From Actinomycetota bacterium (lineage in GTDB: Bacteria; Actinomycetota; UBA4738): a DNA stretch of 64,000 nt. Where the stretch lies: contig JBEDUK010000096.1 in NCBI GenBank assembly GCA_040414485.1, forward strand, positions 46,382 to 110,381, read 5' to 3'. Positions 18,557-44,308 of this stretch are shown here, piece after piece (positions within the stretch are counted from its first letter, which is position 1; every line of letters starts with the position of its first letter). Both the position numbers and the translations under genes were made by a program. The notes below the pieces were generated by a model that did no database searches, was not told the DNA's origin, and saw nothing but the letters and a program-made list of their open reading frames with translations.

Positions 18557-19233
18557 CCGGCCACCACTCGACAGGTCTCGCGCTCGGCGAACGGTGTGAA
18601 CTCGCGGATCTGCAGCGGTGGATCCAGCGCCCCGAGAATCCCTTCCACCAGCCCGCGGTGGAGGGTGCAGACCAGTTCCCGGTGCTCGTCGGCGAGGTCC
18701 TTGAACGGACAGTCGCGGAGGTTGACCTCCACAGCCGTGCCCTCCATGCGCCGGAATCGCGGATCGAAGCCGGCCCTGGCCATCGCCTCCTGCATCAGCG
18801 CCAGCGTGCGCGCGGCGGGCCCCCGCGTGGCGCCCGGCTTCGTCCCCGGCTTCGGCCGCTGCTGCCCCACCAGGTACGCGCCCCACTCGTGGGCCAGCCC
18901 CCGGGCCTGTTCGATCGCGCGCCGGCCGCGGACCAGGACGATCAGCATGTCTGCGAGCAACCGGTAGTCCCGTACGTCCTCGTCCTCGGGTTCGCGAACC
19001 GAATACAGGGTCTGCGGGCGGCCGACCGCGCCCTTCCGCGTCTCGCTCGCCACCAGGCCCGCGTCCTCCAGTCTTCGCAGGTGGGGGCGGACGGTGTTCG
19101 GGTGCAGGTTGAGCCGCCGCGACACCTCACGGACGGAGACCGGCCGGCCGGCCAGTCCGACGAACCGGTACAGGCGATACCGCGTGTCATCCGCCAGGGC
19201 CTTATGGATCTCGAGGGCCGTCGACACAGGCAT
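18553..19233 (-). CDS. ArsR-type HTH regulator with Cys-containing C-terminal domain (SufR-like)
   Basis: LHPNTVRPHLRRLEDAGLV, VGRPQTLY, CPF...LVC.LH.G...C. Confidence 0.85.
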   Translation of the reverse strand: MPVSTALEIHKALADDTRYRLYRFVGLAGRPVSVREVSRRLNLHPNTVRPHLRRLEDAGLVASETRKGAVGRPQTLYSVREPEDEDVRDYRLLADMLIVLVRGRRAIEQARGLAHEWGAYLVGQQRPKPGTKPGATRGPAARTLALMQEAMARAGFDPRFRRMEGTAVEVNLRDCPFKDLADEHRELVCTLHRGLVEGILGALDPPLQIREFTPFAERETCRVVAG

Positions 19234-32769: not shown

Positions 32770-34206
32770 CTAGCCCTGCTCCGACGGAGCGCGCGCCCGA
32801 AGCCACCGGGTCGACGCCTCCAGCACCAGGTACAGCACGAACGCCGAGGCGAACGCCGGCGCGCTCGCCCCGGCCACCGACCCCGCGAGCGGGAACGGCA
32901 GGTGAAGGCCGCCGTGCAGGACGCGTTCGACCAGCCGCTGCCACCCGGCCGGGCCGGTCGGCACCGCCCACTGATACACGACGAACCCCACCGCCCACGC
33001 GGCGAGCGCGGTCGGCCGAAGGCCCCGGTTCGCTCCTGAGCCGAAGAGCGCAGCCTCGCCGAAGGACCTGCGCCGCAGCGCGAAGTAGTCCGCGAGGAAC
33101 ACGCCGAACAGCGGCACGAAGATCGAGCCGAGCAGGAAGAGGAAGGACTCGAACGTCCCAAGCGCGGTGTCGGGCCGGCCGCCGAGCCACACCGCGAGGA
33201 GCGTGCCGGCCACCGCGACCACGAGGATCGTCCGCCGCTGGCCGAGCCGCTCGCGGAGGTTCTGCGCGGACACCGCCGCGGAGTAGATGTCGGCGAATGC
33301 CTCGTCGGTCTCGCCGGCGAGCAGCGCCAGCAGCACGATCCAGCCGCCGGCGAGCCCGGGGATCGCCACCGCCAAACCCGCGGGTGTCCCGTCGGTGAGG
33401 CCCGCGCCTAGGACGAGCAGTGCCCCCAGCGCATAGAACCACGCGTTGCCGACCGCGTAACCGGCGAACGTGCCGGCCGCCGCCCTTCGCGGATCCTTCG
33501 CGAACCGGTTGTAGTCGGCGACGAGCGGCAACCACGAGACCGGCTGGACGATCACCAGGTCGACGGCGAGCCAGAAGTGCAATCCGCCCTCACCGGGCCG
33601 GTGCCACATCGCCGCCAGCGGCGCGCGGGCGAGGATCCTGTAGGTGATCCACGCGGCGACCGCGACGACCACCCACGCCCCGAAACGTTCGAGCCACCTC
33701 CGGATCACCAGGATCGGGCCGCCGAGCGCGAGCGCGGTGCAGGCCAGGGCGACGACGGCCAGCCACAGGCCGTAGGAGTCGAACCCGAACAGCCGCTCGC
33801 CGACGGTGTTCGCGACCAGCGCCATCGCCCAGAACTCGAACCCCGTCCATCCGACGAGCAGCAGGACGTTCAACACGGATGGGATCGACGAGCCGGCCCG
33901 GCCCAGGACCGGGCGGAAGAGCACCATGGTCGGCACGCCTTCGCGCGCGCCTGCGTAGCCGACCAGGGCCAGCGGGATGCAGCCGATGACGGAGCCGACG
34001 GCGATGGCCGCGAGCGCCGCGGGGAGGCCGAGCGCCGGCACGAGCAGCGCGCCGGTGAGCGCAACCAGGAGCCCCACGGCCAGATCGCCCCAGAGGATCG
34101 CCAGGTCGAAGGCGCCGAGCGTCCGCCGATCGAGCGGGACGGGGCGGATGCCCCTCGTGGGCACCTCGCGCTCGAACGCGCGCTCCAGGCGCTCCGCTGC
34201 GCCCAT
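32770..34206 (-). CDS. cytX: NCS1 purine-cytosine permease family, CytX-like thiamine precursor transporter
   Basis: About 12 TM segments, SWLPLVADYNRF, FADIYS; preceded by a TPP riboswitch. Confidence 0.8.
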   Translation of the reverse strand: MGAAERLERAFEREVPTRGIRPVPLDRRTLGAFDLAILWGDLAVGLLVALTGALLVPALGLPAALAAIAVGSVIGCIPLALVGYAGAREGVPTMVLFRPVLGRAGSSIPSVLNVLLLVGWTGFEFWAMALVANTVGERLFGFDSYGLWLAVVALACTALALGGPILVIRRWLERFGAWVVVAVAAWITYRILARAPLAAMWHRPGEGGLHFWLAVDLVIVQPVSWLPLVADYNRFAKDPRRAAAGTFAGYAVGNAWFYALGALLVLGAGLTDGTPAGLAVAIPGLAGGWIVLLALLAGETDEAFADIYSAAVSAQNLRERLGQRRTILVVAVAGTLLAVWLGGRPDTALGTFESFLFLLGSIFVPLFGVFLADYFALRRRSFGEAALFGSGANRGLRPTALAAWAVGFVVYQWAVPTGPAGWQRLVERVLHGGLHLPFPLAGSVAGASAPAFASAFVLYLVLEASTRWLRARAPSEQG

Positions 34207-34214
34207 CGATCGGC

Positions 34215-34335
34215 TCGCCTCCCTTCGCCGGCATTGCCCGGATCAGGTTCGAAGGGTCGCCGGCTCCCCGTCGGGTCGCATGGACCCGTCCGCCAGCCGG
34301 CCTCTCAGCCCGGTCTCACCGAGCTCCCCCGTTCG
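34215..34335 (-). ncRNA. TPP riboswitch
   Basis: Minus strand GGGGAGC...GGGCTGAGAG...GACCCTTCGAACCTGATCCGGGCAATGCCGGCGAAGGGAG matches the THI-box consensus; RBS abuts the aptamer 3' end. Confidence 0.93.
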
Positions 34336-34340
34336 AGCGA

Positions 34341-34350
34341 AGTGTACCCA
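34341..34350 (-). promoter_or_regulatory. Putative -10 element (TACACT) for the riboswitch-cytX transcript
   Basis: TGGGTACACT on the minus strand about 6 nt upstream of the aptamer. Confidence 0.5.
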
Positions 34351-34410
34351 CTGCGAGGCGCACGCACGGGGCCCTGGATCGCTCCCGGGCAAAATGTCCG
34401 AACTGACCGG

Positions 34411-34439
34411 TTGACGGTCGGTACCGCGGCGGTCAAACT
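34411..34439 (+). promoter_or_regulatory. Putative promoter of the aro leader, TTGACG-N17-CAAACT
   Basis: Near-consensus -35 and 17-bp spacer; the predicted start lies only a few nt before leader ATG 34450. Confidence 0.55.
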
Positions 34440-34449
34440 CCAGGGCACG

Positions 34450-34578
34450 ATGCGGTCCACGGACAGCGCGGTGACGGTCCAGCGCCGATGGCAGGGCGCC
34501 CAGTGGCGCTCCTACGCCTTTGCGTATGCCTTCGGCTATGGCGTCCCCACGCCTTCCGGGGGGGATGCAGCCGGATAG
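34450..34578 (+). CDS. Putative aromatic amino acid attenuator leader peptide (42 aa)
   Basis: MRSTDSAVTVQRRWQGAQWRSYAFAYAFGYGVPTPSGGDAAG: W14, W19, Y22, F24, Y26, F28, Y30; lies before a terminator and the aro operon. Confidence 0.8.
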   Translation: MRSTDSAVTVQRRWQGAQWRSYAFAYAFGYGVPTPSGGDAAG

Positions 34579-34606
34579 CACCACCGGCGACATCCGGGAC
34601 CGCGGG

Positions 34607-34644
34607 AGGCGTGGAGCCGAAGGGCTCCGCGCCTTTTCGTTTTC
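34607..34644 (+). terminator. Attenuator intrinsic terminator
   Basis: 12-bp stem AGGCGTGGAGCC/GGCTCCGCGCCT with GAAG loop followed by TTTCGTTTT, upstream of aroH. Confidence 0.85.
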
Positions 34645-34672
34645 TCGGGGCAAGCGAGGAGGTCGGCGAACG

Positions 34673-35083
34673 ATGGACGAAACCAGACCCTCGGAGGCGA
34701 CGCCTCCGCCGGCGCTCGCGTGCCGGGGGATCCGGGGGGCGACCACGGTGGCGGGCGCGGCACCGGACGACGTCGGCCGGGCCACCGCGGAACTGCTCGC
34801 GGAGCTGCAGCAGGCGAACGGGTTCCAACTGGCCGACGTCGCGGCCGCGACCTTCACGCTCCCCGGCGAACTGACCGGCGCGAACCCCGCGGCCGCGGCA
34901 CGAGCGGCGGGATGGGCGGCGATCCCGCTGATGATGGTTCGCGAGCACGGCGGCGACGCCGGCGTCCCGAACTGCCTCCGCGTCCTCCTGCTGGTCAACA
35001 CCACGACGACACAGTCCGAGATCCGCCACGTCTACCTGCGAGGAGCGGCCGAACTTCGGCCCGACCTCGCTACCCTCTCATGA
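34673..35083 (+). CDS. aroH: AroH-class chorismate mutase
   Basis: RGIRGATTV, PAAAAR, CLRVLL, HVYLRGAAELRPDL; GAGGAGG RBS. Confidence 0.9.
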   Translation: MDETRPSEATPPPALACRGIRGATTVAGAAPDDVGRATAELLAELQQANGFQLADVAAATFTLPGELTGANPAAAARAAGWAAIPLMMVREHGGDAGVPNCLRVLLLVNTTTTQSEIRHVYLRGAAELRPDLATLS

Positions 35084-36162
35084 GCACCGTCCTCGACCGC
35101 CCGACGCTTCGTCCGACGCAGCCCTCGAAGGAGGAACCGATGGTCATCGTCATGCAGGCCCACGCGAGCGAAGAGGAGGTCGCGGGCGTCATCGCCAAGA
35201 TCGAGTCGCTCGGTTTCACGCCCCACGTCTCGCCCGGTTCCGAACGGACGATCATCGGCGTCATCGGCGACGAGCGGCCCGTCGAGCCGATCGTGTTCGA
35301 GGCATTGGCCGGCGTCGACCGCGTGGTGCGGATCCTCGCGCCGTTCAAGCTCGCCAGCCGCGAATTCCATCCCGCCGATCGGGTGATCCAACTGCCGAAC
35401 GGCGTTCGGATCGGCGGCTCGTGCGGCGTCGCGATGATGGCCGGGCCGTGTGCCGTCGAAAACGCCGACCAGCTCGCCGCCGCGGCCGAGGCGGTCCATG
35501 CGGTCGGCGTCCGCGTGCTGCGTGGCGGCGCGTTCAAGCCCAGGACCTCGCCGTACGCGTTCCAGGGGCTCGGCGAGAAAGGACTGCTCCTGCTCCGCGA
35601 GGCGGCCGACCGGCTGGGTATGGCGGTCATCACCGAGGTGGTCACGCCGGAGGACGTGCCGCTGGTCGCCGAGCACGCGGAGATGCTGCAGGTCGGGGCG
35701 CGAAACATGCAGAACTACCGGCTGCTGCGCGCATGCGGCGACGCCGGCCGCCCGGTGCTCCTCAAGCGGGGCCTCGGGTCGACGATCGACGAGCTCCTTC
35801 AAGCGGCCGAGTACATCCTGGCCCACGGGAACGGCGACGTCGCCGTGTGCGAGCGGGGGATCCGGACGTTCGAGACGGCCACGCGGTTCACGCTGGACAT
35901 CAACGCCGTGCCCGTGTTGAAGCACGCCACGTCGCTGCCGGTGATCGTGGACCCGTCGCATGCCGCCGGCCGCGCCGAATTCGTCCCGTCGATCGCGCTC
36001 GCAGCGGTGGCGGCGGGAGCCGACGGGCTGTTGATAGAGGTTCACCCGAACCCGGCCGAAGCGCTCTCCGACGGCGCGCAGTCACTGACGCCGGCGGCGT
36101 TCGCCTCGTTGATGCACGACGTGTCTCGCGTGGCGGCCGCGGTGGGGCGGCCGGCAGGCTGA
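35080..36162 (+). CDS. aroF: DAHP synthase type I-beta with N-terminal regulatory domain (alternative start 35140)
   Basis: AGPCAVE, RGGAFKPRTSPYAFQG, QVGARNMQN, LLKRG, CERGIRTFE, VDPSH; N-terminal MVIVM...RTIIGVIGD. Confidence 0.93.
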   Translation: MSTVLDRPTLRPTQPSKEEPMVIVMQAHASEEEVAGVIAKIESLGFTPHVSPGSERTIIGVIGDERPVEPIVFEALAGVDRVVRILAPFKLASREFHPADRVIQLPNGVRIGGSCGVAMMAGPCAVENADQLAAAAEAVHAVGVRVLRGGAFKPRTSPYAFQGLGEKGLLLLREAADRLGMAVITEVVTPEDVPLVAEHAEMLQVGARNMQNYRLLRACGDAGRPVLLKRGLGSTIDELLQAAEYILAHGNGDVAVCERGIRTFETATRFTLDINAVPVLKHATSLPVIVDPSHAAGRAEFVPSIALAAVAAGADGLLIEVHPNPAEALSDGAQSLTPAAFASLMHDVSRVAAAVGRPAG

Positions 36163-36215: not shown

Positions 36216-37184
36216 ATGACGAGCGCTGAGGGTCCGCCCGCCGGGACGCCCGGCACGCCCGGCACGCCCGGAACGCCCGGAACGCGCGCCGGCGCCGTCT
36301 CGATCGTCGGCGCCGGGCAGGTCGGCACCATGCTGGGCCTCGCGCTCATGCGAGATCGGGAGAGGGCGGGACTCGATTCCCTGACGCTGTTCGACCGGGA
36401 CCAGGGCGTCGCGGCCGCCAGCCTCGGGCGCGGAGCCGGCGACGCCGTCGGAGCCGAACTCGCCGCAGCATTCCGCGCCGACACGGTCGTCCTCGCCACA
36501 CCGGTCGACCAGATCGTCAGCTTACTTGACGAATTTGGGACGCTCGTCCGCGAGGGCTCGCTCGTCATCGACACCGGCAGCGCCAAGGGCGCCGTGGTCG
36601 CCGCGATGCGACGGTCGGTGTCGCCCGACGCCCACGCGGTCGGCGGACACCCGATGGCCGGCACCGAGCGTCCCGGGCCGGCCGGCGCCGATCCCGAACG
36701 CCTCCGCGGAGCCACGTTCGTCCTCACGGCGGTGCGCGACGATCCGCCGGGCATGGAGCGCGCCGCGGAGCTCGTCCGCGGCGTTGGGGCGCGGCCGCTC
36801 GAGATGGACGCCGGCGAGCACGACGGGGCGGTCGCCTTCACCAGCCACCTCCCGCACCTCCTGGCGTTCGGGCTCGCCTACGCAACCGTCGCCGCCGCGA
36901 CGGCGGCTCCCGCCGATCCAGGCGACCCGGCCGGCTTCGATGCGGGCCTGGCCGCGCTCATCTCAACCGGGTTCCTGGGTACGTCACGCCTTGCCGAAAG
37001 CGACCCGGCCGCCACGGCCGCGTTCCTCGCTGCGAACGCGGACGCCGTGCAGCGGGCCGCGACCGCGTTCGGCGCCTCGTTCGATTCGCTCGTCCGACTG
37101 CTCAACGACCAGCGGAAGCTCACCGAGGCATTGGCGGCCGCGCGCGCCGCGCGGCGGGCACTCGTGCCCGAGGCCGGCGCGTGA
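36216..37184 (+). CDS. tyrA: Prephenate/arogenate dehydrogenase
   Basis: GAGQVG Rossmann motif, DTGSAK, GGHPMAGTE, HD..VA..SHLPH. Confidence 0.9.
   Translation: MTSAEGPPAGTPGTPGTPGTPGTRAGAVSIVGAGQVGTMLGLALMRDRERAGLDSLTLFDRDQGVAAASLGRGAGDAVGAELAAAFRADTVVLATPVDQIVSLLDEFGTLVREGSLVIDTGSAKGAVVAAMRRSVSPDAHAVGGHPMAGTERPGPAGADPERLRGATFVLTAVRDDPPGMERAAELVRGVGARPLEMDAGEHDGAVAFTSHLPHLLAFGLAYATVAAATAAPADPGDPAGFDAGLAALISTGFLGTSRLAESDPAATAAFLAANADAVQRAATAFGASFDSLVRLLNDQRKLTEALAAARAARRALVPEAGA
36241..36285 (+). repeat. In-frame 9-bp tandem repeat encoding (GTP)x4 in the TyrA N-terminus
   Basis: ggg acg ccc / ggc acg ccc / ggc acg ccc / gga acg ccc / gga acg. Confidence 0.7.
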
Positions 37185-38461
37185 GTCCGCTGTCCGGGGT
37201 TCGACGCGTGCCGGGGGACAAGTCGATCTCCCACCGCGCCGCCATCCTCGGCGCGCTGGCCGACGGACCGAGCGAGGTCCGAGGCTTCTCGCCCGCCGGA
37301 GACTGCACCGGGACGCTCCGCGCCCTGGCCGCGCTCGGCTGCCCGATCGAGCGGCACCATGGCGGGGACATCCTCGTCCAGGGGCCGCTTGACCCTTCGG
37401 CGCGGGACGTGGGCAGGGTCGACTGCGGCCGGGCGGGAACCGCCATGCGCCTGCTGGCGGGCCTGGTCGCCTCGTTCCCGATCAGCGCCCGCCTCACCGG
37501 CGATCCGCAACTGCTCACCAGGCCGATGCGGCGGGTCGCGGAGCCGCTTCGATCCATGGGCGCCCGGGTCGGCCTCGCCGACGGCGATCACCCGCCGATC
37601 CACGTGACGGGCGGGCGCCTGCGCGGGATCGACTACGAGCTTCCGGTGGCGAGCGCGCAGGTCAAGAGCGCGATCCTGATCGCCGCGCTGCGGGCCGACG
37701 GTGAGACGACGGTCCGCGAACCGTGGCGGTCGCGCGACCACACCGAACGGATGCTCGGCGCGATGGGCGCGGACCTCCAGGCGAAGGACGGCTGGGTTCG
37801 GATCGAACCTTCGACCCTCCGGCCCGTCGATGTCACCATGCCCGGCGACCCGTCGTCCGCGGCATTCCTCTGGGCCGCCGGTGCCATGGTGCCGGGTTCG
37901 GACGTCACGGTCGAGGCGGTCGGATTGAATCCGACGCGCACCGGCTTCCTGGACGTCCTTCGCGCGATGGGCGCCGACGTGGAGGTCGCACAGACCGGCG
38001 AGGAGGCCGGCGAACCTGTCGGGCGCGTTCGCGTTCGCCACGCCGGACTGTCGGCGACATCGGTCGAGCCGGCGGCCGTGCCCTCGCTGATCGACGAGCT
38101 GCCGCTGGTCGGGCTGCTCGCCACCCAGGCGGAGGGCACCACCGAGGTCCGCGGCGCGGAGGAGCTCCGCGTCAAGGAGAGCGACCGCATCACCGGCCTG
38201 GTCGAGGGCCTGCGCATGCTCGGCGCGGATGCCGAAGCGCTGTCCGACGGGTTCATCGTGCGCGGTCCTGTTCGGCTCCACGGCGGTGAGGTCGACGGCC
38301 TGCGCGACCATCGGCTCGCGATGACCTTCGCCGTGGCCGGCCTGGTGGTCTCGGATCCCGTCGCTGATCCCGTTCGGGTGGAGGGGCTGGCATTCGCCTC
38401 CGACTCCTTCCCCGGCTTCGCCGACACCCTCCGGTCCCTGGCGCGCGAGGACGCCGTGTGA
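37181..38461 (+). CDS. aroA: EPSP synthase
   Basis: PGDKSISHRA, GTAMRL, RPMRRV, ASAQVKSA, RDHTERML, LRVKESDRI, DHRLAM. Confidence 0.96.
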   Translation: MSPLSGVRRVPGDKSISHRAAILGALADGPSEVRGFSPAGDCTGTLRALAALGCPIERHHGGDILVQGPLDPSARDVGRVDCGRAGTAMRLLAGLVASFPISARLTGDPQLLTRPMRRVAEPLRSMGARVGLADGDHPPIHVTGGRLRGIDYELPVASAQVKSAILIAALRADGETTVREPWRSRDHTERMLGAMGADLQAKDGWVRIEPSTLRPVDVTMPGDPSSAAFLWAAGAMVPGSDVTVEAVGLNPTRTGFLDVLRAMGADVEVAQTGEEAGEPVGRVRVRHAGLSATSVEPAAVPSLIDELPLVGLLATQAEGTTEVRGAEELRVKESDRITGLVEGLRMLGADAEALSDGFIVRGPVRLHGGEVDGLRDHRLAMTFAVAGLVVSDPVADPVRVEGLAFASDSFPGFADTLRSLAREDAV

Positions 38462-39351
38462 GCTCGCGCGTCCTGCTGATCGGCGACCCGGTGGCGCACA
38501 GCGTCTCACCCGCCATGCAGAACGCGGCGTTCCGGGCGGCGGATCTGGACTGGACATACGAAGCGGTCACCGTCGCGCGCGACGGTCTGGCCGGCGCGTG
38601 GACATCGATCGAAACCGACCCGTCGGTCGTTGGGTTGAACGTGACGATCCCGCTCAAGGAGGCCGTGGTGCCTCACCTCGCACGGGTGGAGACGCACGAC
38701 GGCTCGGTGAACACGATCGTCTTCGAAGTCTTCGATGTCTTCGACGCCGATGCGCGGGGCGCCGGTGGGTCGGGTCGGGTCGCCGTGGGCCACTCCACCG
38801 ACGGCGTGGGGTTTCTGGCGGCGCTGCGCCGCGTGGATGGGCGGCCGCGGCGGCGCGCCGTGGTGCTTGGAACCGGCGGGGCCGCCCGCGCAGCCGCGGC
38901 CGCCCTTCGCGGTGATGGCTCCGAGGTCACCGTTCTCGGCAGGAACCACGAGCGCGGCCGGCGGCTGGCCTCGGATCTCGGCGTCGGGTTCGAACTGTGG
39001 GAACGGGACGCCCCAGGCGCAGCCGAACTGCTCGAACGGCACCTGGACGGCGCCGACCTGCTGGCGAACGCCACCCCGGTCGGGACCGGCGATGCGGGCG
39101 CGAGCCCGCTTCCCGGCGGGGTGCGTCTGCCCGCGGAGGTCACGGTCTTCGACCTCGTGTACCGTCCTCGCCGGACGGCGCTCCTCCGGCAGGCGGCGGA
39201 GCAGGGGTGCCGAACGGTCGAGGGGATCGAGATGCTGATCGAACAGGGCGCGCGTTCGTTCTCCCTGTGGACGGGACGCGCCGCGCCGACTGACGTGATG
39301 CGCGACGCCGCGTACGCAGCGCTCGGCACGGCGCCCGAAGCGGAGGTCTGA
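38458..39351 (+). CDS. aroE: Shikimate dehydrogenase
   Basis: GDPVAHSVSPAMQN, NVTIPLK, SVNT, STDG, GTGGAARA, DLVY, MLIEQG. Confidence 0.93.
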   Translation: MSSRVLLIGDPVAHSVSPAMQNAAFRAADLDWTYEAVTVARDGLAGAWTSIETDPSVVGLNVTIPLKEAVVPHLARVETHDGSVNTIVFEVFDVFDADARGAGGSGRVAVGHSTDGVGFLAALRRVDGRPRRRAVVLGTGGAARAAAAALRGDGSEVTVLGRNHERGRRLASDLGVGFELWERDAPGAAELLERHLDGADLLANATPVGTGDAGASPLPGGVRLPAEVTVFDLVYRPRRTALLRQAAEQGCRTVEGIEMLIEQGARSFSLWTGRAAPTDVMRDAAYAALGTAPEAEV

Positions 39352-39355
39352 GGCG

Positions 39356-40570
39356 GTGCGCTTCCTCACCGCCGGCGAGTCCCACGGGCCGGAGCTCGTG
39401 GTCATCGTCGAAGGGCTGCCGGCAGGTGTCTCCGTCCGCCAGGAGGCGCTCGACGAGGATCTGGCTCGGCGGCAGCGTGGCTACGGACGAGGCGCGCGCT
39501 CCACGCGGATCGAACGCGACCATGCGGAGGTCGTCGCGGGCATCGCCGGCGGAACGACCACCGGGGCGCCGGTGGCGATCCGGATCGTGAATCGGGACTT
39601 CGCGAACCAACCGGCCCAACCGAAGTCGTTGACGGCGCCGCGGCCGGGACACGCCGATCTGGCCGGCGGCATGAAGTACGGGCTCGACGACTTCCGGCTC
39701 GTCCGCGAGCGGGCCAGCGCGCGCGAGACGGCCGCGCGCGTGGCCGCCGGCGCGCTGGCCCGCTCGCTCCTGGCACATTTCGGCGCCGAGATCGGCTCGT
39801 TCGTCGTCGCCATCGGCGACCGTCGAATGGATCCCGCCGCGAACGTCTCCGAGATGGACGCCTCGGCCCTGTGGGCGCTCGCCGGGCGCGCCGAGGACGA
39901 CCCGGTTCGCTGTCCGGACCCCGACGCTTCGGCCCGGATGACCGCGGCGATCGACGCCGCGAAGGAGGCCGGCGAGACGCTCGGCGGCGTGTTCGTCGTC
40001 TTCGCGACCGGCGTTCCGGCCGGGCTCGGCAGCCACGTCCACTGGGACCGTCGGCTGGACGGCCGGCTGATCGGCGCGCTGGGCTCGATCCACGCTGTCA
40101 AGGGGGCCGAGGTCGGCGACGCGTTCGCCCTCGCAGAGCTGCCCGGGACCGGCGCGGTCGACTCGATCGTCCGGACGGCGGAGGGGAGCGGTCTGGGCCG
40201 GCCGACGAACCGGGCGGGCGGCCTCGAGGGAGGGATGACGAACGGCCGTCCGGTCGTGCTCCGCGCCGCGATGAAGCCCTTGTCGTCCGTGCGCCGAGAG
40301 GTCGAATCGATCGACCTGCGCACCGGCGCGCCGGTGGATCCCGCCTATGTGCGCTCCGACGTGTGCGCGGTTCCTGCGGCCGCGGTCGTCGGCGAGGCCA
40401 TGGTGGCCTGGGTCCTGGCCGACGCGCTCACCGAGCGGTTCGGCGCGGACCGGCTCGACGCCATGCTCGCCGCATTCGACGCGGTCCGGGCGGACGCTCG
40501 CTGGACGCCTCCGGCCGCGGGTGCGACGGATGTCATGGACGCCGCGATCGACGTGGACGCCGAACGATGA
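39356..40570 (+). CDS. aroC: Chorismate synthase
   Basis: TAGESHG, RPGHAD, ERASARETAARVAAG, NRAGGLEGGMTNG, RSDVCAVP. Confidence 0.97.
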   Translation: MRFLTAGESHGPELVVIVEGLPAGVSVRQEALDEDLARRQRGYGRGARSTRIERDHAEVVAGIAGGTTTGAPVAIRIVNRDFANQPAQPKSLTAPRPGHADLAGGMKYGLDDFRLVRERASARETAARVAAGALARSLLAHFGAEIGSFVVAIGDRRMDPAANVSEMDASALWALAGRAEDDPVRCPDPDASARMTAAIDAAKEAGETLGGVFVVFATGVPAGLGSHVHWDRRLDGRLIGALGSIHAVKGAEVGDAFALAELPGTGAVDSIVRTAEGSGLGRPTNRAGGLEGGMTNGRPVVLRAAMKPLSSVRREVESIDLRTGAPVDPAYVRSDVCAVPAAAVVGEAMVAWVLADALTERFGADRLDAMLAAFDAVRADARWTPPAAGATDVMDAAIDVDAER

Positions 40571-42243
40571 CCATGCCAGAGATCGCACCGACCTTCCTTC
40601 CGGCGCCGGACCTCATGCCGGGGAGGCCGAACCTGGTGGTCACCGGCTTCATGGGGACCGGCAAGACCACGGCCGGAAAGGAGGCAGCGCGCCTCCTCGG
40701 ACTTCCATTCGTCGACCTGGACCGGCTGATCGAACAGCGCACCGGCCGGACGGTCCAGGACCTCTTCGATCAGGAGGGCGAGGGCGGTTTCCGCGCGCTG
40801 GAACAGGCCGCGCTGAGGGATGCCGCTCGCCTGTCCGGAACGGTGATCTCCACCGGCGGCGGCGCCGTGCTGCACGATCAGGAGTTCGCGGACCTCAAGC
40901 GGACCGCGGAGGTAATGGTCCTCACCGCCGATCCGGCCGTCATGGTCGCCCGTGTTCGTGCCGGAGAGGGGCGGCCCCTCCTGCGCGACGAACGGTCGGT
41001 CGAGGATCGGATGCGCGACCTGTTCGCCGAACGGGCGGACCGCTACGCGGCGGCCGGCACGCCCATCGACACCTCGCACGGCATCCGGAAGTCGGCCGCC
41101 CGCGAGGCGGTCGCGCGGTACCGGCAGAGCGTCGGCGCGGAGGCGTCGTTCGCACGGTTCGAGGTCCCAACCCCCGGAGGGCAAGGGTCGTCGGTACTGG
41201 TCGGCCGCGGGTCGACGGGCCGGATCGCGGAGGAACTGTGTGCCGCGCTTCCCCGATCAGCGCTGGCCGTCGTGGCGGCGGAGGATGTCGTCGGGGGTCC
41301 CGGCGGCCAGGCGGAACGGGTCTCGGCGTCGCTGGCCGCAGCCGGCATCCGCAGCGTCCGTGTGGCGGTGGCGGGGGGCGAACGGCGAAAGGACCTCGCC
41401 ACGGCGACCTCGCTCTGGGACGCGTTCCGTGAGGCCGGCCTGTCACGGACGGATGCCGTGGTTGCGGTCGGGGGCGGCGCCACGCTCGACGCGATCGGGT
41501 TCGCGGCGGCCACGTACGCCAGGGGCGTTCCGCTCGTCAACGTGCCGACCACGCTGCTCGCGATGGTCGACGCGAGCCTGGGCGGCAAGGTCGCCATCGA
41601 TCACGGCGATGCGAAGAACCTCGTCGGCGCGTTCCATCATCCGGCGGTGGTGATCGCGGACCCGGACGCGCTGGCCACACTTCCCCCGGCGATCGTCCGG
41701 CACGGCCTGGCGGAGGCTGTCAAGGCGGCCGTCCTCGCCTCGCCCGCGATGCTCGACATCCTCGATGCCGACCCGTTCGATGCGAACGGACTTCCCTCGC
41801 GCATCGAATGGATCGTCGAACAGGCGGTGCGGATCAAGGCCGCGTACGTCGCCGCCGACGCGGCCGACCTGGGTCTTCGACACTCACTCAACCTCGGGCA
41901 CACCTTCGCCCATGCGATCGAATCGGCGTCCGGATACGCGGTCGCGCATGGCGACGCCGTGGCCATCGGTACCGTCGCAGCCGCGCGGCTGGGCGAACGG
42001 TTCGGCATGACCCGGACCGGAACGGCCGTGCGTCTCCGGGCCACCTTCGAGCGTCTCGGGCTGCCGACGGACACGCCGGCGGAACTCGATCCGGACGCCA
42101 TGGCGGCGGCGATGGGCGCAGACAAGAAGCGCCGGGCCGGCCGGTCGGTGTTCGTCGTCCCGGTCGACGGCGGCGCCGCACTATTGGAGGGCATCGAACC
42201 GGCGGAGGCCGTCCTGGCGCTCACCGGGAAGGGGGAGGCGTGA
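40567..42243 (+). CDS. aroKB: Bifunctional shikimate kinase / 3-dehydroquinate synthase fusion
   Basis: N-terminal GFMGTGKTT, GE.GFR, STGGG, RPLL; C-terminal GGG..LD, PTTLLAMVDASLGGK, KNLVGAF, LNLGHTFAHAIE, HGDAV. Confidence 0.92.
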   Translation: MTMPEIAPTFLPAPDLMPGRPNLVVTGFMGTGKTTAGKEAARLLGLPFVDLDRLIEQRTGRTVQDLFDQEGEGGFRALEQAALRDAARLSGTVISTGGGAVLHDQEFADLKRTAEVMVLTADPAVMVARVRAGEGRPLLRDERSVEDRMRDLFAERADRYAAAGTPIDTSHGIRKSAAREAVARYRQSVGAEASFARFEVPTPGGQGSSVLVGRGSTGRIAEELCAALPRSALAVVAAEDVVGGPGGQAERVSASLAAAGIRSVRVAVAGGERRKDLATATSLWDAFREAGLSRTDAVVAVGGGATLDAIGFAAATYARGVPLVNVPTTLLAMVDASLGGKVAIDHGDAKNLVGAFHHPAVVIADPDALATLPPAIVRHGLAEAVKAAVLASPAMLDILDADPFDANGLPSRIEWIVEQAVRIKAAYVAADAADLGLRHSLNLGHTFAHAIESASGYAVAHGDAVAIGTVAAARLGERFGMTRTGTAVRLRATFERLGLPTDTPAELDPDAMAAAMGADKKRRAGRSVFVVPVDGGAALLEGIEPAEAVLALTGKGEA

Positions 42244-42689
42244 ACGTCCTGATCCTGCACGGCCCGAACCTCAACCTCCTCGGCGAGCGGGAGCCGGACG
42301 TCTACGGCACCATGACGCTCGCCGAACTGGACGGGATGTTGGCCGAGCACGCGGCGGCCCTCGCAATCACGGTCCAGTCGCGGCAGTCGAACTCCGAGGG
42401 CGAACTGGTCGACCTCATCCAGGGCGCCCGTGGATGGGCGGACGCCATCGTGATCAATCCGGGCGGCTATTCGCACACGAGCGTGGCCATCCGGGACGCG
42501 CTGGCGGGCGTCGCGCTGCCCGCGATCGAGGTGCATCTCTCCAATCCCAACGCGCGCGAGTGGTTCCGGCGCGAGGACCTGGTCGCCGGCGCCTGCACGG
42601 GCGTGATCGCCGGGTTCGGCGCGCGTTCCTACACGATGGCGTTGGACGCGCTGGCCGGGGCGGCGGACCGGGACGGGGGAACTCTGTGA
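42240..42689 (+). CDS. aroQ: Type II 3-dehydroquinate dehydratase
   Basis: LHGPNLNLLGEREP.VYG, QSNSEG, INPGGYSHTS, EVHLSN..ARE.FR. Confidence 0.95.
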   Translation: MNVLILHGPNLNLLGEREPDVYGTMTLAELDGMLAEHAAALAITVQSRQSNSEGELVDLIQGARGWADAIVINPGGYSHTSVAIRDALAGVALPAIEVHLSNPNAREWFRREDLVAGACTGVIAGFGARSYTMALDALAGAADRDGGTL

Positions 42690-44308
42690 CGAACCGGCCG
42701 GCCGGCGACGAAGCCGAACGTCGCCCGCGACGGACGCCTGCCGGCGACCGCTTCGGCTGGCATCCGGACCCGGATCTGATCGGGCACGACGACCTCGAGG
42801 CGCTGGCCGCCGTCGGCGCGCTCGGCGACGACGCGTGGGGTGCGGCGATGGACTGGCTTCGTGACGAGGCCTCCAGGCGGCCCGTCGCCGGCCTTCCGTA
42901 CGAGCAGATGCGGTCGGCGTTCTACGGCACGGAAGGCGGACCGCCGCCGGCGCCCGCGGGCCCGACGCCGTGGTCTGCGATCCTTGCGGAGATCCGCGAG
43001 CGGCTCCTGCCGTACCAGTACGCCGCGCAGCATCCGGCGCAGTTCGCGTACTTCACGCCGCCCCCGCTCCCGGTCGCCGCCGCCGCGGAGTCGCTCGCCG
43101 CGTGGCTGAACCAGGGCGTGGACGTGTGGGCCTGCAGTCCCTCGTCGGCGTTCGTCGAAGAGGAGGTCGTGACCTGGCTGCGCAGCCTGGTCGGGTTCGA
43201 CGAGAGCGGATGGGGCGTCCTGACGTCCGGCGGTGTGATGGCGAACTTCATGGCGCTCGCCGTGGCGCGGGACGTCCACCTGCGGCGTCTCCGCGGACTC
43301 GACGCGCCTCCGCGCGGCGGCGCGCTCGACGGGGTGCGCGCCTACGCGAGCGACCAGGCGCACTTCTCGATCGCGCGCAGCCTGTCCTGGCTTGGATTCC
43401 CGCCGGAGACGCTTCGCATCGTTCCGTCCGACGACCGGTTCCGCCTTCGCGGTGACGCGCTGCGGGAGGCCGTGGAACAGGACCGCGCCGACGGGCTCCT
43501 TCCGTGGTGCGTCGCGGCGGTGAGCGGTTCGACGAACACAGGGTCGGTCGATGCCGTCGCCGAGTTGGCCGACGTGTGCGCCGCCGACGGCATGTGGTTC
43601 CACGTCGACGCGGCGTACGGAGGGGCGGTTCGGCTCTCGGAGCGGGATGCGTGGCGGGTACCGGACCTCGAACGCGCTGACTCGGTCACCATCGATCCGC
43701 ACAAGTGGTTCTTCCAGCCGTACGACATCGGCGCCCTGATGGTAAAGCAACATGACGATCTGCTGATGACGTTCCACGGCGCGCCCGAGTACTACCGGCA
43801 CCCGCGCCCGGACGAGGAGCCGCTCCATTGGTACCGGTACTCCTTCGAAGGAACCCGCCGCTTCCGCGCGCTCAAGCTCTGGGTTTCGTGGAAGCACCTT
43901 GGCACCAGCGGTTTCGGCCGGCTGATCGAATCGAACCTCGAGGTCGCGCAGCACCTCGCGCGGCGGTGCGCCGAGAGTGATGACTTCGAGGCGTGCCCCG
44001 CGGAACCCGAACTCTCGGTCGTGTGCTTCCGGCACCTCCCAGGCGGAGCCGAGGCGGCCGCGCGGATGGAGCCGGCCGCGCTGGACGCGCATCAGGACCT
44101 GCTGCAGCGGAGGCTCGAAGCCAGCGGTGAGGGGTGGGTCTCGACCACGACGTTGCGCGGCCGCACGTACCTTCGGGCCGGCGTCGTGAACTACCTCTCC
44201 ACGCCCGAGGACGCGGATCACGTGCTGGCCACGCTTCGACGCATCGCGGGCGAGGAGGCCTTGGGCGGTGGGATGGAGGCGGCGACTACGGAGCCGTCAC
44301 CTTCGTGA
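42686..44308 (+). CDS. Group II PLP-dependent decarboxylase (aromatic amino acid / glutamate decarboxylase family)
   Basis: TSGGVMAN, AHFSI, GSTNTGSVD, HVDAAYGG, DSVTIDPHKW (PLP Lys), RRFRALKLW; GTGA overlap with aroQ. Confidence 0.9.
   Translation: MTNRPAGDEAERRPRRTPAGDRFGWHPDPDLIGHDDLEALAAVGALGDDAWGAAMDWLRDEASRRPVAGLPYEQMRSAFYGTEGGPPPAPAGPTPWSAILAEIRERLLPYQYAAQHPAQFAYFTPPPLPVAAAAESLAAWLNQGVDVWACSPSSAFVEEEVVTWLRSLVGFDESGWGVLTSGGVMANFMALAVARDVHLRRLRGLDAPPRGGALDGVRAYASDQAHFSIARSLSWLGFPPETLRIVPSDDRFRLRGDALREAVEQDRADGLLPWCVAAVSGSTNTGSVDAVAELADVCAADGMWFHVDAAYGGAVRLSERDAWRVPDLERADSVTIDPHKWFFQPYDIGALMVKQHDDLLMTFHGAPEYYRHPRPDEEPLHWYRYSFEGTRRFRALKLWVSWKHLGTSGFGRLIESNLEVAQHLARRCAESDDFEACPAEPELSVVCFRHLPGGAEAAARMEPAALDAHQDLLQRRLEASGEGWVSTTTLRGRTYLRAGVVNYLSTPEDADHVLATLRRIAGEEALGGGMEAATTEPSPS

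What the first reader, a model, noticed from the sequence alone, without database searches (positions are those of the whole stretch)
34450..34644. Candidate Trp/Tyr/Phe triple-sensing ribosome-dependent attenuator controlling a whole shikimate operon
Seen: an unannotated 42-aa uORF has 7 aromatic codons within 17 (W14, W19, Y22, F24, Y26, F28, Y30, including AT-rich TTT and TAT codons) and none elsewhere. It is followed by a 12-bp terminator stem with a U-rich tail (34607-34644). CCACGCCTTCCG (34547-58) is complementary over 12 bp, with one G-U pair, to CGGGAGGCGTGG (34603-14), which includes the terminator 5' arm, so it can act as an antiterminator. Competing helices (34531-48 with 34561-75, or GGCGT/ACGCC at 34540-53) can sequester it. 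Known: classical trp and pheA attenuators use this architecture, mostly with one aromatic amino acid. Inference: one near-leaderless uORF integrates all three end products of the common aromatic pathway. I know of no described example for a complete aro operon in this kind of organism, but I cannot search to confirm novelty.
Basis: partly seen in the sequence, partly recalled or inferred. Interest (0 to 1): 0.9.

Follow-up and report, generated by a model that had tools for sequence, protein, structure and literature searches.

The report
Aromatic leader-peptide attenuator of shikimate operon
A short upstream reading frame packed with tryptophan, tyrosine and phenylalanine codons, followed by a terminator hairpin and a competing helix, is conserved in front of the aromatic amino acid operon in a group of uncultured actinobacteria and most likely switches the whole pathway on when these amino acids run short.

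Summary
The 42-codon uORF (34450-34578) has 7 Trp/Tyr/Phe codons within 17. A 15-bp terminator with a U-rich tail follows it (34604-34645). A 12-bp alternative helix (34547-58 with 34603-14) would disrupt that terminator.

The element sits in front of nine tightly packed genes: aroH chorismate mutase, DAHP synthase, tyrA, aroA, aroE, aroC, aroK-aroB, aroQ and a PLP decarboxylase.

A covariance model found the same element in 22 genomes of three Actinomycetota families. Two of these genomes are unpublished. It lies upstream of aroH in 20; one contig ends too soon and one copy looks like a remnant.

Among the 20 published leaders:
- Tyr codons occur in 20, Phe in 17, Trp in 14, and all three in 11.
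- 34 of 43 Tyr codons are the rare TAT.
- The start codon lies 35-39 nt after a conserved TTGAC box, so the mRNA is probably leaderless.
- The antiterminator helix shows compensatory changes.

I read it as a classical ribosome-mediated attenuator (about 0.8). Triple sensing is plausible but unproven. The concept is already known from the aroR-aroF attenuator of Corynebacterium glutamicum and an aroF uORF motif in Acholeplasma. This is therefore a new member of a known kind, with moderate interest.

The parts
34411..34439 (+). Putative promoter: -35 TTGACG (34411-16), 17-nt spacer, -10-like CAAACT (34434-39). The ATG follows 10 nt after the -10 box, so the 5' UTR would be only a few nucleotides at most (leaderless or near-leaderless).
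   Evidence: Read. A TTGAC-type box lies 35-39 nt before the leader ATG in the 18 leaders and the 4, each followed after 16-18 nt by a CAnnnT/TAnnnT hexamer (my reading of the printed strings). The generic promoter scan did not call it (0 sites). No transcription start data.
34450..34578 (+). Leader ORF of 42 codons plus TAG stop (P0001).
   Evidence: An in-frame ORF with a conserved ATG and a stop at a fixed in-frame distance from the antiterminator strand is present in 22 genomes.
34489..34539 (+). Regulatory codon cluster: W14, W19, Y22, F24, Y26, F28, Y30. Two of three Tyr codons are TAT and one of two Phe codons is TTT.
   Evidence: Genome-wide, TAT is 13.4% of Tyr codons and TTT is 2.3% of Phe codons.
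34547..34558 (+). Antiterminator 5' strand (segment B). It lies inside the leader ORF and encodes the conserved Thr/Ala-Pro-Ser.
   Evidence: 12-bp duplex with 34603-14, -23.2 kcal/mol. 89.6% of cells paired in 16 sequences against 38-54% for slid controls; 4 pairs carry compensatory changes.
34570..34588 (+). Small hairpin (5 bp in this genome) with the leader stop codon (34576-78) in its loop.
   Evidence: Per-sequence folds show a hairpin around the stop codon in 9 of 10 family-f1 leaders. Its function is not established.
34603..34645 (+). Intrinsic terminator: 5' arm 34604-18 (its first part, 34603-14, is also the antiterminator 3' strand), loop, 3' arm 34623-37, U-rich tail to 34645.
   Evidence: 15 pairs, 9 GC. 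96.5% paired in 10 sequences and 97.9% paired in the 17 rows of alignment A3, one of which is a reverse-strand partial match. -28.9 kcal/mol.
34656..35083 (+). Shine-Dalgarno-like GAGGAGG (34656-62) and aroH, an AroH-class chorismate mutase (ATG 34673; 136 aa).
   Evidence: Pfam CM_1, 3e-33. Sequence.
35080..36162 (+). DAHP synthase, type I-beta, with an N-terminal ferredoxin-like regulatory domain. Its start overlaps the aroH stop.
   Evidence: Pfam DAHP_synth_1 1.7e-74 and DAHP_snth_FXD 3.1e-24.
36216..37184 (+). tyrA, prephenate dehydrogenase.
   Evidence: Pfam PDH_N and PDH_C. Start.
37181..38461 (+). aroA, EPSP synthase.
   Evidence: Pfam EPSP_synthase 6.7e-100.
38458..39351 (+). aroE, shikimate dehydrogenase.
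   Evidence: Pfam Shikimate_dh_N and SDH_C.
39356..40570 (+). aroC, chorismate synthase.
   Evidence: Pfam Chorismate_synt 2.7e-106.
40567..42243 (+). aroK-aroB fusion: shikimate kinase plus 3-dehydroquinate synthase.
   Evidence: Pfam SKI, DHQ_synthase and DHQS_C. Start.
42240..42689 (+). aroQ, type II 3-dehydroquinase.
   Evidence: Pfam DHquinase_II 1.7e-54.
42686..44308 (+). PLP-dependent (group II) decarboxylase. Its GTG start overlaps the aroQ stop, so it is probably the last gene of the operon.
   Evidence: Pfam Pyridoxal_deC 7e-68. Start candidates.

Best explanation
This is a ribosome-mediated (leader-peptide) transcription attenuator.

Proposed mechanism:
1. Transcription starts a few nucleotides before, or at, the leader ATG. 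The leader is therefore probably translated as a leaderless ORF as soon as its 5' end emerges.
2. When charged tRNA-Tyr, tRNA-Phe and probably tRNA-Trp are plentiful, the ribosome runs through the aromatic codons and over segment B (34547-58). It reaches the stop codon 17 nt further on.
3. A ribosome at the stop sits between B and its partner 34603-14, so that partner instead pairs with 34623-37. The terminator forms and transcription ends near 34640.
4. When a charged aromatic tRNA is scarce, the ribosome stalls within 34489-34539. B stays free and pairs with 34603-14 as soon as that strand is made.
5. The terminator stem is then cut down to its top 4-5 pairs, far from the U tract, and RNA polymerase reads on into aroH, DAHP synthase, tyrA, aroA, aroE, aroC, aroKB, aroQ and the decarboxylase.
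6. The strong preference for the rare TAT codon probably makes the switch especially sensitive to tRNA-Tyr charging.

Shown here: the sequence features, their conservation, the covariation, the codon bias and the gene content.
Inferred, not shown: translation of the leader, the transcription start, termination at the hairpin, and the response to amino acid supply.
For: Anatomy.

Distribution:
- Of the 12 family-f1 aroH loci, 10 carry the leader, one contig ends before it, and one (L005) lacks it.
- Covariance model R1 finds full-length, high-scoring copies in 11 of 27 f1 genomes, 7 of 27 f8 genomes (two of the seven, G049 and G065, are unpublished) and 4 of 86 f9 genomes.
- 20 of the 22 copies lie directly upstream of an aroH-like ORF.

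Coding signal in the 20 published leaders:
- 98 of 597 in-frame codons are aromatic, against 20 and 37 of 597 in the other two frames.
- Tyr occurs in 20 of 20, Phe in 17 and Trp in 14.
- 34 of 43 Tyr codons are TAT, against 13.4% genome-wide in this genome.
- The assembly holds one tRNA gene each for Tyr (GTA), Phe (GAA) and Trp (CCA).
- The gap between B and the stop codon is 17, 14, 11 or 8 nt, so it is always in frame.

RNA signal:
- Antiterminator: 89.6% of cells paired against 38-54% for slid partners, 4 pairs and 7 cells with double changes, and 0 of 500 shuffles reach the covariation score.
- One antiterminator position switches A-U to G-C in three genera. This turns the encoded Thr into Ala, so the constraint is on the RNA rather than the peptide.
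- Terminator: 97.9% paired.

Promoter: a TTGAC box lies 35-39 nt before the ATG in all 22 copies.

Simulated stalls: with the ribosome footprint masked, the antiterminator (at least 8 bp) is the MFE of the nascent transcript in 60 of 81 stalls over 16 leaders.

Context: the same genome has a second leader of the same build upstream of trpE. It has the TTGACG-17-CAGGAT-9-ATG arrangement, 23 codons with three Trp codons, and then a GC-rich hairpin.

Precedent:
- Leaderless leader-peptide attenuators in Streptomyces lividans (PMC8079986, passages).
- The aroR-aroF attenuator in C. glutamicum (PMC11802643 and PMC4046766, passages).
Against: - There are no expression data of any kind. The genome is a metagenome-assembled genome, and the sequencing-run tool could not be reached in five tries.
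- At equilibrium the full-length RNA always prefers the terminator, by about 10 kcal/mol, with or without a masked ribosome. The model therefore depends on co-transcriptional kinetics.
- There is no conserved anti-antiterminator. Without any ribosome the antiterminator forms in 12 of 16 nascent transcripts. This differs from the E. coli trp paradigm.
- MFE results are fragile. For the window's own leader, shifting the transcript ends by one nucleotide changed the outcome for F24 (versus 64). W14 never gave the antiterminator.
- A ribosome at the stop codon does not cover B directly in family f1; its footprint ends about 2-3 nt after B. The block is a steric inference.
- One member (G004) has the hairpin without a U tract.
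- One f1 genome has aroH without the element. Most aroH loci examined elsewhere in the order and phylum lack it.
- The generic promoter scan called nothing.
- In C. glutamicum, according to the review read, only Phe limitation and not Tyr affected aroR-aroF. Mixed codons therefore need not mean mixed sensing.
Confidence: 0.8

Rival explanations
1. It is an attenuator of the same build, but it senses only tyrosine, or tyrosine plus phenylalanine. The Trp codons are incidental or too far upstream to matter.
For: - Tyr is the only residue present in all 20 published leaders; Trp is missing from 6 and Phe from 3.
- The codon bias concerns Tyr: TAT is 34 of 43 Tyr codons.
- In the window's own leader the two Trp codons lie 43-58 nt before segment B. 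A simulated stall at W14 did not give the antiterminator.
- trpE has its own Trp-only leader.
- In C. glutamicum the Phe-Tyr-Phe leader responded to one amino acid only, according to the review read.
Against: - Trp codons occur in 14 of 20 leaders, although TGG makes up only 1.5% of codons in this genome.
- In most leaders they sit inside the Tyr/Phe cluster, directly before B.
- A simulated stall at W19 does give the antiterminator.
Confidence: 0.3
2. The conserved RNA is a switch that does not depend on translation, such as a riboswitch or a protein- or tRNA-binding leader. The ORF is then a by-product of high G+C, where stop codons are rare.
For: - Open frames of 25-42 codons are common by chance at 70% G+C; the same frame stays open for 333 codons upstream.
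- The best-conserved stretches are the RNA helices, not the peptide.
Against: - No Rfam family matches on this strand, even at E up to 10 or at gathering score over the window.
- Aromatic codons are enriched only in the leader frame: 98 against 20 and 37 of 597. Their positions shuffle between genomes while their number is kept.
- The ATG is invariant at a fixed distance from the promoter.
- Length differences between B and the stop codon come in multiples of three.
- The part upstream of the codon cluster is not conserved as RNA.
Confidence: 0.07
3. The leader peptide acts as a nascent-chain arrest sensor in the manner of TnaC, or as a small protein in trans. Its conserved C-terminal part would be the functional feature.
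For: The C-terminal Thr/Ala-Pro-Ser ... Gly-stop pattern recurs in most leaders.
Against: - The Thr/Ala alternation follows the compensatory change in the RNA helix.
- The residues after it vary in sequence and length in families f8 and f9.
- The final Gly codon is part of the small hairpin stem.
- Pfam was not searched with the leader peptide itself.
Confidence: 0.05
4. It is a chance aromatic-rich frame next to an ordinary or constitutive terminator, with no regulatory role.
For: 111 comparably aromatic-rich windows exist in the genome.
Against: - The whole arrangement is conserved in 22 genomes of three families at the same place, with covariation.
- The neighbouring gene is divergent, so no upstream gene needs this terminator.
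Confidence: 0.02

Closest known systems
aroR-aroF attenuator of Corynebacterium glutamicum (Neshat et al. 2014). The paper itself was not read; it is known here from passages of PMC11802643, PMC4046766 and PMC7356990.
   Same: An actinobacterial leader-peptide attenuator with mixed aromatic codons (Phe-Tyr-Phe) in front of a DAHP synthase gene.
   Different: - Here the leader carries 3-7 aromatic codons, usually including Trp.
- The first gene is an AroH-class chorismate mutase, followed by a type I-beta DAHP synthase and all the other shikimate genes plus tyrA.
- The hosts are uncultured lineages.
- Sequence relatedness to aroR could not be tested, because no C. glutamicum sequence was available to me.
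- aroR is reported to respond to Phe but not Tyr limitation (review).
Classical trp, pheA and ilv attenuators of proteobacteria (Yanofsky model; recalled textbook knowledge, mentioned).
   Same: A leader ORF rich in the regulatory codons, mutually exclusive antiterminator and terminator helices, and a ribosome position that decides between them. Sensing of several amino acids by one leader is known from the ilv and thr leaders (recalled).
   Different: - No Shine-Dalgarno sequence; a leaderless-type start.
- No conserved 1:2 (anti-antiterminator or pause) hairpin.
- The antiterminator strand lies wholly inside the ORF, 8-17 nt before the stop codon.
- No match to any Rfam leader family.
Leaderless leader peptides of Streptomyces lividans (leuL, trpL, ilvL, alaL, metL, thrL; PMC8079986, passages).
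   Same: High-G+C actinobacteria, leader peptides transcribed without a 5' UTR, followed by hairpins and U stretches. The trpE leader in the window's genome resembles their trpL1 in build.
   Different: That study lists no leader for the common aromatic pathway. Its leaders have 1-6 regulatory codons, mostly of one amino acid.
uORFC-13-1 motif upstream of aroF in Acholeplasma (PMC8632094, passage).
   Same: A predicted uORF with promoter boxes directly before an intrinsic terminator, found only upstream of the DAHP synthase gene.
   Different: A low-G+C Mollicutes lineage, with an RBS present and a run of U coding for Phe. There is no mixed Trp/Tyr/Phe cluster and no whole-pathway operon.
Polycysteine leaderless short ORFs of mycobacteria (bioRxiv 10.1101/834739; search listing and start of abstract only).
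   Same: Leaderless short ORFs, enriched in one amino acid's codons, that act as attenuators of downstream operon genes in actinobacteria.
   Different: Cysteine instead of aromatic residues. I did not read the mechanism, so it is not compared.

Membership tests
Ribosome-mediated (leader-peptide) transcription attenuator | Short ORF upstream of a biosynthetic operon, enriched in codons for that pathway's end products | tested here: met
   7 of 42 codons in the window. 98 of 597 codons in 20 published leaders, against 20 and 37 of 597 in the other frames. The operon content was confirmed by Pfam.
Ribosome-mediated (leader-peptide) transcription attenuator | Intrinsic terminator between the leader ORF and the first structural gene | tested here: met
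   15-bp stem plus U-rich tail. Conserved, 97.9% paired. One member lacks the U tract.
Ribosome-mediated (leader-peptide) transcription attenuator | Antiterminator helix mutually exclusive with the terminator, with its 5' strand placed where ribosome position controls it | tested here: met
   12 bp in the window. 89.6% paired with compensatory changes in 16 sequences. The 5' strand lies 7 nt after the last aromatic codon and 17 nt before the stop.
Ribosome-mediated (leader-peptide) transcription attenuator | Anti-antiterminator or pause hairpin (1:2) that enforces termination when the leader is not translated | tested here: not met
   In nascent-transcript folds without a ribosome, segment B pairs upstream in only 4 of 16 leaders. 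The antiterminator forms in the other 12. This feature belongs to the E. coli trp paradigm and is not required of every attenuator.
Ribosome-mediated (leader-peptide) transcription attenuator | The leader is translated, and read-through rises when the cognate charged tRNA is limiting | not testable with these tools
   No culture and no expression data. The look-up of sequencing runs could not be reached.
aroR-aroF attenuator of Corynebacterium | Sequence or structure homology to the aroR leader; position upstream of aroF (cg1129) | not tested
   No C. glutamicum sequence was fetched. The gene order differs (aroH is first here), and the published leader motif is Phe-Tyr-Phe. I treat the two as analogous and do not claim membership.
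Rfam leader, riboswitch and T-box families | A match to a curated covariance model | tested here: not met
   No match on the + strand of 33800-35200 at E up to 10. No match at gathering score in the whole window.

The most novel reading that the evidence does not exclude
A two-tier attenuation hierarchy, based on leaderless leaders, governs aromatic amino acid synthesis in these uncultured actinobacteria.

- Tier one: a mixed Trp/Tyr/Phe leader acts as the single master switch for all seven shikimate steps plus chorismate mutase, prephenate dehydrogenase and an aromatic-type decarboxylase. It is tuned by an almost exclusive use of the rare TAT codon. It works without any anti-antiterminator, so read-through is the default and termination needs a ribosome that finishes the leader.
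- Tier two: a separate Trp-only leader of the same build gates the tryptophan branch at trpE.
Probability: 0.35. Interest if true: 0.6.

Novelty: new member of a known kind. Interest (0 to 1): 0.42.

Why it matters
If the reading is right, it adds a well-defined RNA element that Rfam does not hold (22 copies, a covariance model, covariation) to the small set of attenuators controlling the common aromatic pathway.

It is a clean natural case of one leader placed to integrate the three end products over a complete nine-gene operon. It also shows that leaderless leader-peptide attenuation extends to deep, uncultured branches of Actinomycetota.

The strong TAT bias is a testable example of rare-codon tuning of an attenuator.

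For annotation, the element marks the true 5' end of the aro operon in these metagenome-assembled genomes.

It does not change the concept of attenuation. Multivalent leaders and an aromatic leader at a DAHP synthase gene are already described.

Tried and rejected
Searches that excluded other element types:
- Rfam found nothing on the + strand. A riboswitch or T-box of a known family is therefore rejected.

Covariance model hits that were not the element:
- In the family search, the hits at or below 29.5 bits were mostly not the element. Nine loci were inspected; eight were ordinary terminators, a tRNA region or coding sequence, and only L048 was real.
- In the order search, 12 loci were inspected. 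Seven were f8 leaders. L069, L072, L073, L075 and L076 were not leaders.
- Not inspected: L070, L071, L074, L077 and L078, and L082 and L083. Each matched only the terminator half of the model, so I did not count them.
- The class search drew only genomes of the same order and added nothing.

aroH loci without the element:
- Of the 27 aroH loci, my tblastn step placed the gene in 23. L020, L024, L025 and L027 were dropped and never examined.
- The 10 examined loci from families other than f1 and f8 (L014-L019, L021-L023, L026) showed no aromatic-rich leader.
- Across the phylum, 165 of 301 genomes have an AroH match (that tally includes ten unpublished genomes). I fetched 40 upstream regions, all from published genomes outside the order. 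Only one (L084) had the element.

Other checks in the window's own genome:
- pheA upstream showed no leader.
- The promoter scan found nothing at its threshold.

Tools not used: no protein-structure, complex or atlas tool, because the question is about RNA and codons.

Supplements of the papers were closed. Leader-peptide tables in the supplements of Neshat 2014 or PMC4046766 might list further aromatic leaders that I could not see.

Literature searches behind the statement that no such whole-operon Trp/Tyr/Phe leader is in print. These cover the open-access library only, and Neshat 2014 itself is not in it.
Full report
**What is there**

The window is 69.8% G+C in its genome. It belongs to a metagenome-assembled genome of 115 contigs, 90.9% complete. 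The nearest titled relative of its AroH protein is labelled only as an Actinomycetota bacterium (62% identity).

Positions 34207-34672 form a divergent intergenic region.
- To the left, on the minus strand, lies an NCS1-family permease gene (32770-34206). A TPP-riboswitch-like sequence precedes it (34204-34340; 46.1 bits, below the gathering score of 54.3; E 1.6e-7).
- To the right, on the plus strand, lies the reported element, followed by nine tightly packed genes.

Pfam identifies these genes as follows:
- an AroH-class chorismate mutase
- a type I-beta DAHP synthase with a ferredoxin-like regulatory domain
- prephenate dehydrogenase
- EPSP synthase
- shikimate dehydrogenase
- chorismate synthase
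- a shikimate kinase / dehydroquinate synthase fusion
- type II dehydroquinase
- a group II PLP decarboxylase

Five of the eight gene junctions overlap by four bases, one has a 4-nt gap and one (DAHP synthase to tyrA) a 53-nt gap. 'A whole shikimate operon' is therefore a fair description.

**The observation**

The terminator is a 15-pair stem (34604-34637) with a U-rich tail. Segment 34547-58 can form a 12-bp helix with 34603-14 at -23.2 kcal/mol. The region folds better than all 200 shuffles (z = -3.64).

Genome-wide, windows this rich in aromatic residues are rare: 111 clusters in six frames of 3.58 Mb. Judging from the 40 listed, many look like membrane-protein stretches.

**Comparative evidence**

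I collected aroH loci from 40 relatives.
- Of the 12 loci from the window's own family (f1), 10 carry a short ORF with an aromatic cluster followed by the same hairpin. One contig ends before the region. One genome (L005) has aroH without the element.
- Four of the 27 loci were dropped because my tblastn step did not place the gene.
- The 10 examined loci of other families, apart from one f8 locus, had no such ORF.

From the ten f1 sequences I built alignments A1 and A2 and a covariance model, R1. Searching with R1 gave these results:
- Family f1: 11 of 27 genomes. The eleventh is G041.
- Sister family f8: 7 of 27 genomes. Two of the seven, G049 and G065, are unpublished.
- The large family f5: nothing convincing.
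- Family f9 elsewhere in the phylum: 4 of 86 genomes, in two genera. I found these after screening 40 aroH upstream regions across the phylum.

In 20 of the 22 genomes an aroH-like ORF follows directly. In G063 the contig ends too soon to tell. In G041 the element sits after trpA and before what looks like the last 77 codons of tyrA, which suggests a remnant or an assembly problem.

**Evidence that the ORF is read**

In the 20 published leaders:
- The ATG is invariant.
- 98 of 597 in-frame codons are aromatic, against 20 and 37 of 597 in the other two frames.
- The positions of the individual Trp, Tyr and Phe codons shuffle from genome to genome, while the cluster is kept.
- Tyr is present in 20 of 20, Phe in 17, Trp in 14, and all three in 11.
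- 34 of 43 Tyr codons are TAT. In the window's genome TAT makes up only 13.4% of Tyr codons, and the assembly has a single tRNA-Tyr gene with anticodon GTA.

The distance from segment B to the stop codon is 17 nt throughout f1, and 17, 14, 11 or 8 nt in f8. It is therefore always in frame. The stretch before the cluster varies in length and sequence.

**Evidence for the RNA switch**

On the model-based alignment of 16 published sequences, which was fitted to the terminator and not to the antiterminator:
- The antiterminator helix is paired in 89.6% of cells, against 38-54% when partners are slid. Four pairs and seven cells show changes on both sides, and no shuffle of 500 reaches its covariation score.
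- The terminator is paired in 97.9% of cells.
- One antiterminator pair is A-U in 11 sequences, G-C in 3 and G-U in 2. The G-C form changes the encoded Thr to Ala. The recurring Thr/Ala-Pro-Ser in the peptides is thus explained by the RNA.

These genomes are related to one another, so the counts are not independent events.

**Transcription start**

A TTGAC-type box lies 35-39 nt before the ATG in all 22 copies. It is followed after 16-18 nt by a CAnnnT or TAnnnT hexamer, and then by 7-10 nt before the ATG (strings printed).

With the usual spacing this puts the start at, or a few bases before, the ATG. No Shine-Dalgarno sequence precedes the leader, whereas aroH has GAGGAGG 10 nt before its ATG.

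The generic promoter scan did not call the site, and there are no transcript data. 'Leaderless' is therefore an inference. It matches what is reported for the eight leader peptides of Streptomyces lividans (PMC8079986, passages read).

**How it most likely works**

I propose the classical logic without the first hairpin.
- A ribosome that completes the leader ends up at a stop codon 8-17 nt past segment B. It then stands between B and its partner, so the partner pairs downstream and the terminator forms.
- A ribosome stalled at an aromatic codon leaves B free to capture the partner as soon as it is transcribed.

I folded nascent transcripts with the stalled ribosome's footprint masked.
- The antiterminator appears in 60 of 81 simulated stalls over 16 leaders.
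- For the window itself it appears for W19 through F28, weakly for Y30 and not for W14. One result changed when the transcript ends were shifted by a base, so these folds are only indicative.
- Without any ribosome the antiterminator also forms in 12 of 16 leaders. I find no conserved anti-antiterminator.
- The full-length RNA at equilibrium always prefers the terminator, by about 10 kcal/mol. The choice must therefore be kinetic.
- A small hairpin with the stop codon in its loop recurs in 9 of 10 f1 leaders. I cannot say what it does.

**Is it triple sensing?**

The design fits this reading. The genome has a second leader of the same build in front of trpE, with three Trp codons among 23 and then a GC-rich hairpin. 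The branch would then have its own Trp switch, while the common pathway carries codons for all three products.

The evidence is still only codon content.
- Tyr is the one universal and codon-biased signal.
- Six of 20 leaders lack Trp.
- In the one experimentally studied analogue, according to the review I read, only Phe limitation had an effect.

I put triple sensing in this genome at roughly even odds, and attenuation by at least Tyr/Phe at about 0.8.

**Comparison with what is known**

- The closest described system is aroR-aroF of Corynebacterium glutamicum. It has a Phe-Tyr-Phe leader before a DAHP synthase gene. I read passages in PMC4046766, PMC11802643 and PMC7356990. The original 2014 paper is not in the library.
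- A uORF motif before aroF was predicted in Acholeplasma (PMC8632094, passage).
- An early survey of Actinobacteria found no conserved RNA structures upstream of Phe or Tyr operons (PMC1262725, passage).
- Five full-text searches turned up no Trp/Tyr/Phe leader in front of a complete aro operon.
- Rfam has no matching family.

I therefore file this as a new member of a known kind. It is a new sequence family of leader-peptide attenuator in uncultured Actinomycetota, working like the known ones. Its own features are a leaderless start, an antiterminator strand inside the ORF, no first hairpin, and a rare-codon bias.

**Verdict**

The finding is real and its core interpretation holds. Its novelty was overstated, and triple sensing remains to be shown. 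Interest is moderate (0.42).

Noticed in passing
window 34204-34340 (minus strand), with the gene at 32770-34206 (minus): A TPP-riboswitch-like sequence lies directly upstream of an NCS1-family permease (Pfam Transp_cyt_pur, 1e-36). It covers the full length of the Rfam model, at 46.1 bits (below the gathering score of 54.3) and E 1.6e-7. This is probably a thiamine or thiamine-precursor transporter under riboswitch control. It shares the intergenic region with the aro leader.
   Followed up: partly
own genome G000, contig C73, minus strand, about 19107-19178, upstream of the anthranilate synthase gene whose Pfam match lies at C73:17525-18298: A second leader of the same build: TTGACG, 17 nt, CAGGAT, 9 nt, then an ATG opening a 23-codon ORF with Trp at positions 8, 10 and 11. 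A 9-bp GC hairpin with only a weak T run follows. It is probably a Trp attenuator for trpE. Its conservation was not examined.
   Followed up: partly
window 42686-44308 (+): A group II PLP-dependent decarboxylase gene (Pfam Pyridoxal_deC, 7e-68). Its GTG start overlaps the aroQ stop, so it seems to belong to the aro operon. This would tie production of an aromatic amine, or a similar product, to the same switch. I did not check whether relatives keep this gene.
   Followed up: no
L048 (G041:C69), element at locus positions about 1461-1621: In this f1 genome the leader has Trp and Tyr codons but no Phe. Leader and terminator lie downstream of a trpA-like gene. They are followed not by aroH but by an open frame resembling only the last 77 residues of prephenate dehydrogenase, and then by convergent unrelated genes. 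This could be a remnant, a rearrangement or an assembly artefact. The trpA and tyrA likenesses are my reading of the translations and were not searched.
   Followed up: partly
G359, G476, G477 (genus g202) and G507 (genus g273), family f9; loci L124-L127: Only 4 of 86 genomes of this distant family carry the element. The AroH of G359 is 56% identical to the window's, against about 40% for other f9 members. This suggests that the operon moved between lineages together with its leader. No tree was built.
   Followed up: no
L045 (G004:C15:229-354): This copy keeps the leader, the antiterminator strand and a strong hairpin (-31.3 kcal/mol), but the stem is followed by CCTCCTC instead of a T run. 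It may not terminate in the usual way.
   Followed up: no
window 34570-34588 and the same place in relatives: A small hairpin of 4-8 bp holds the leader's stop codon in its loop in 9 of 10 f1 leaders, with different stem sequences. No explanation was tested.
   Followed up: partly
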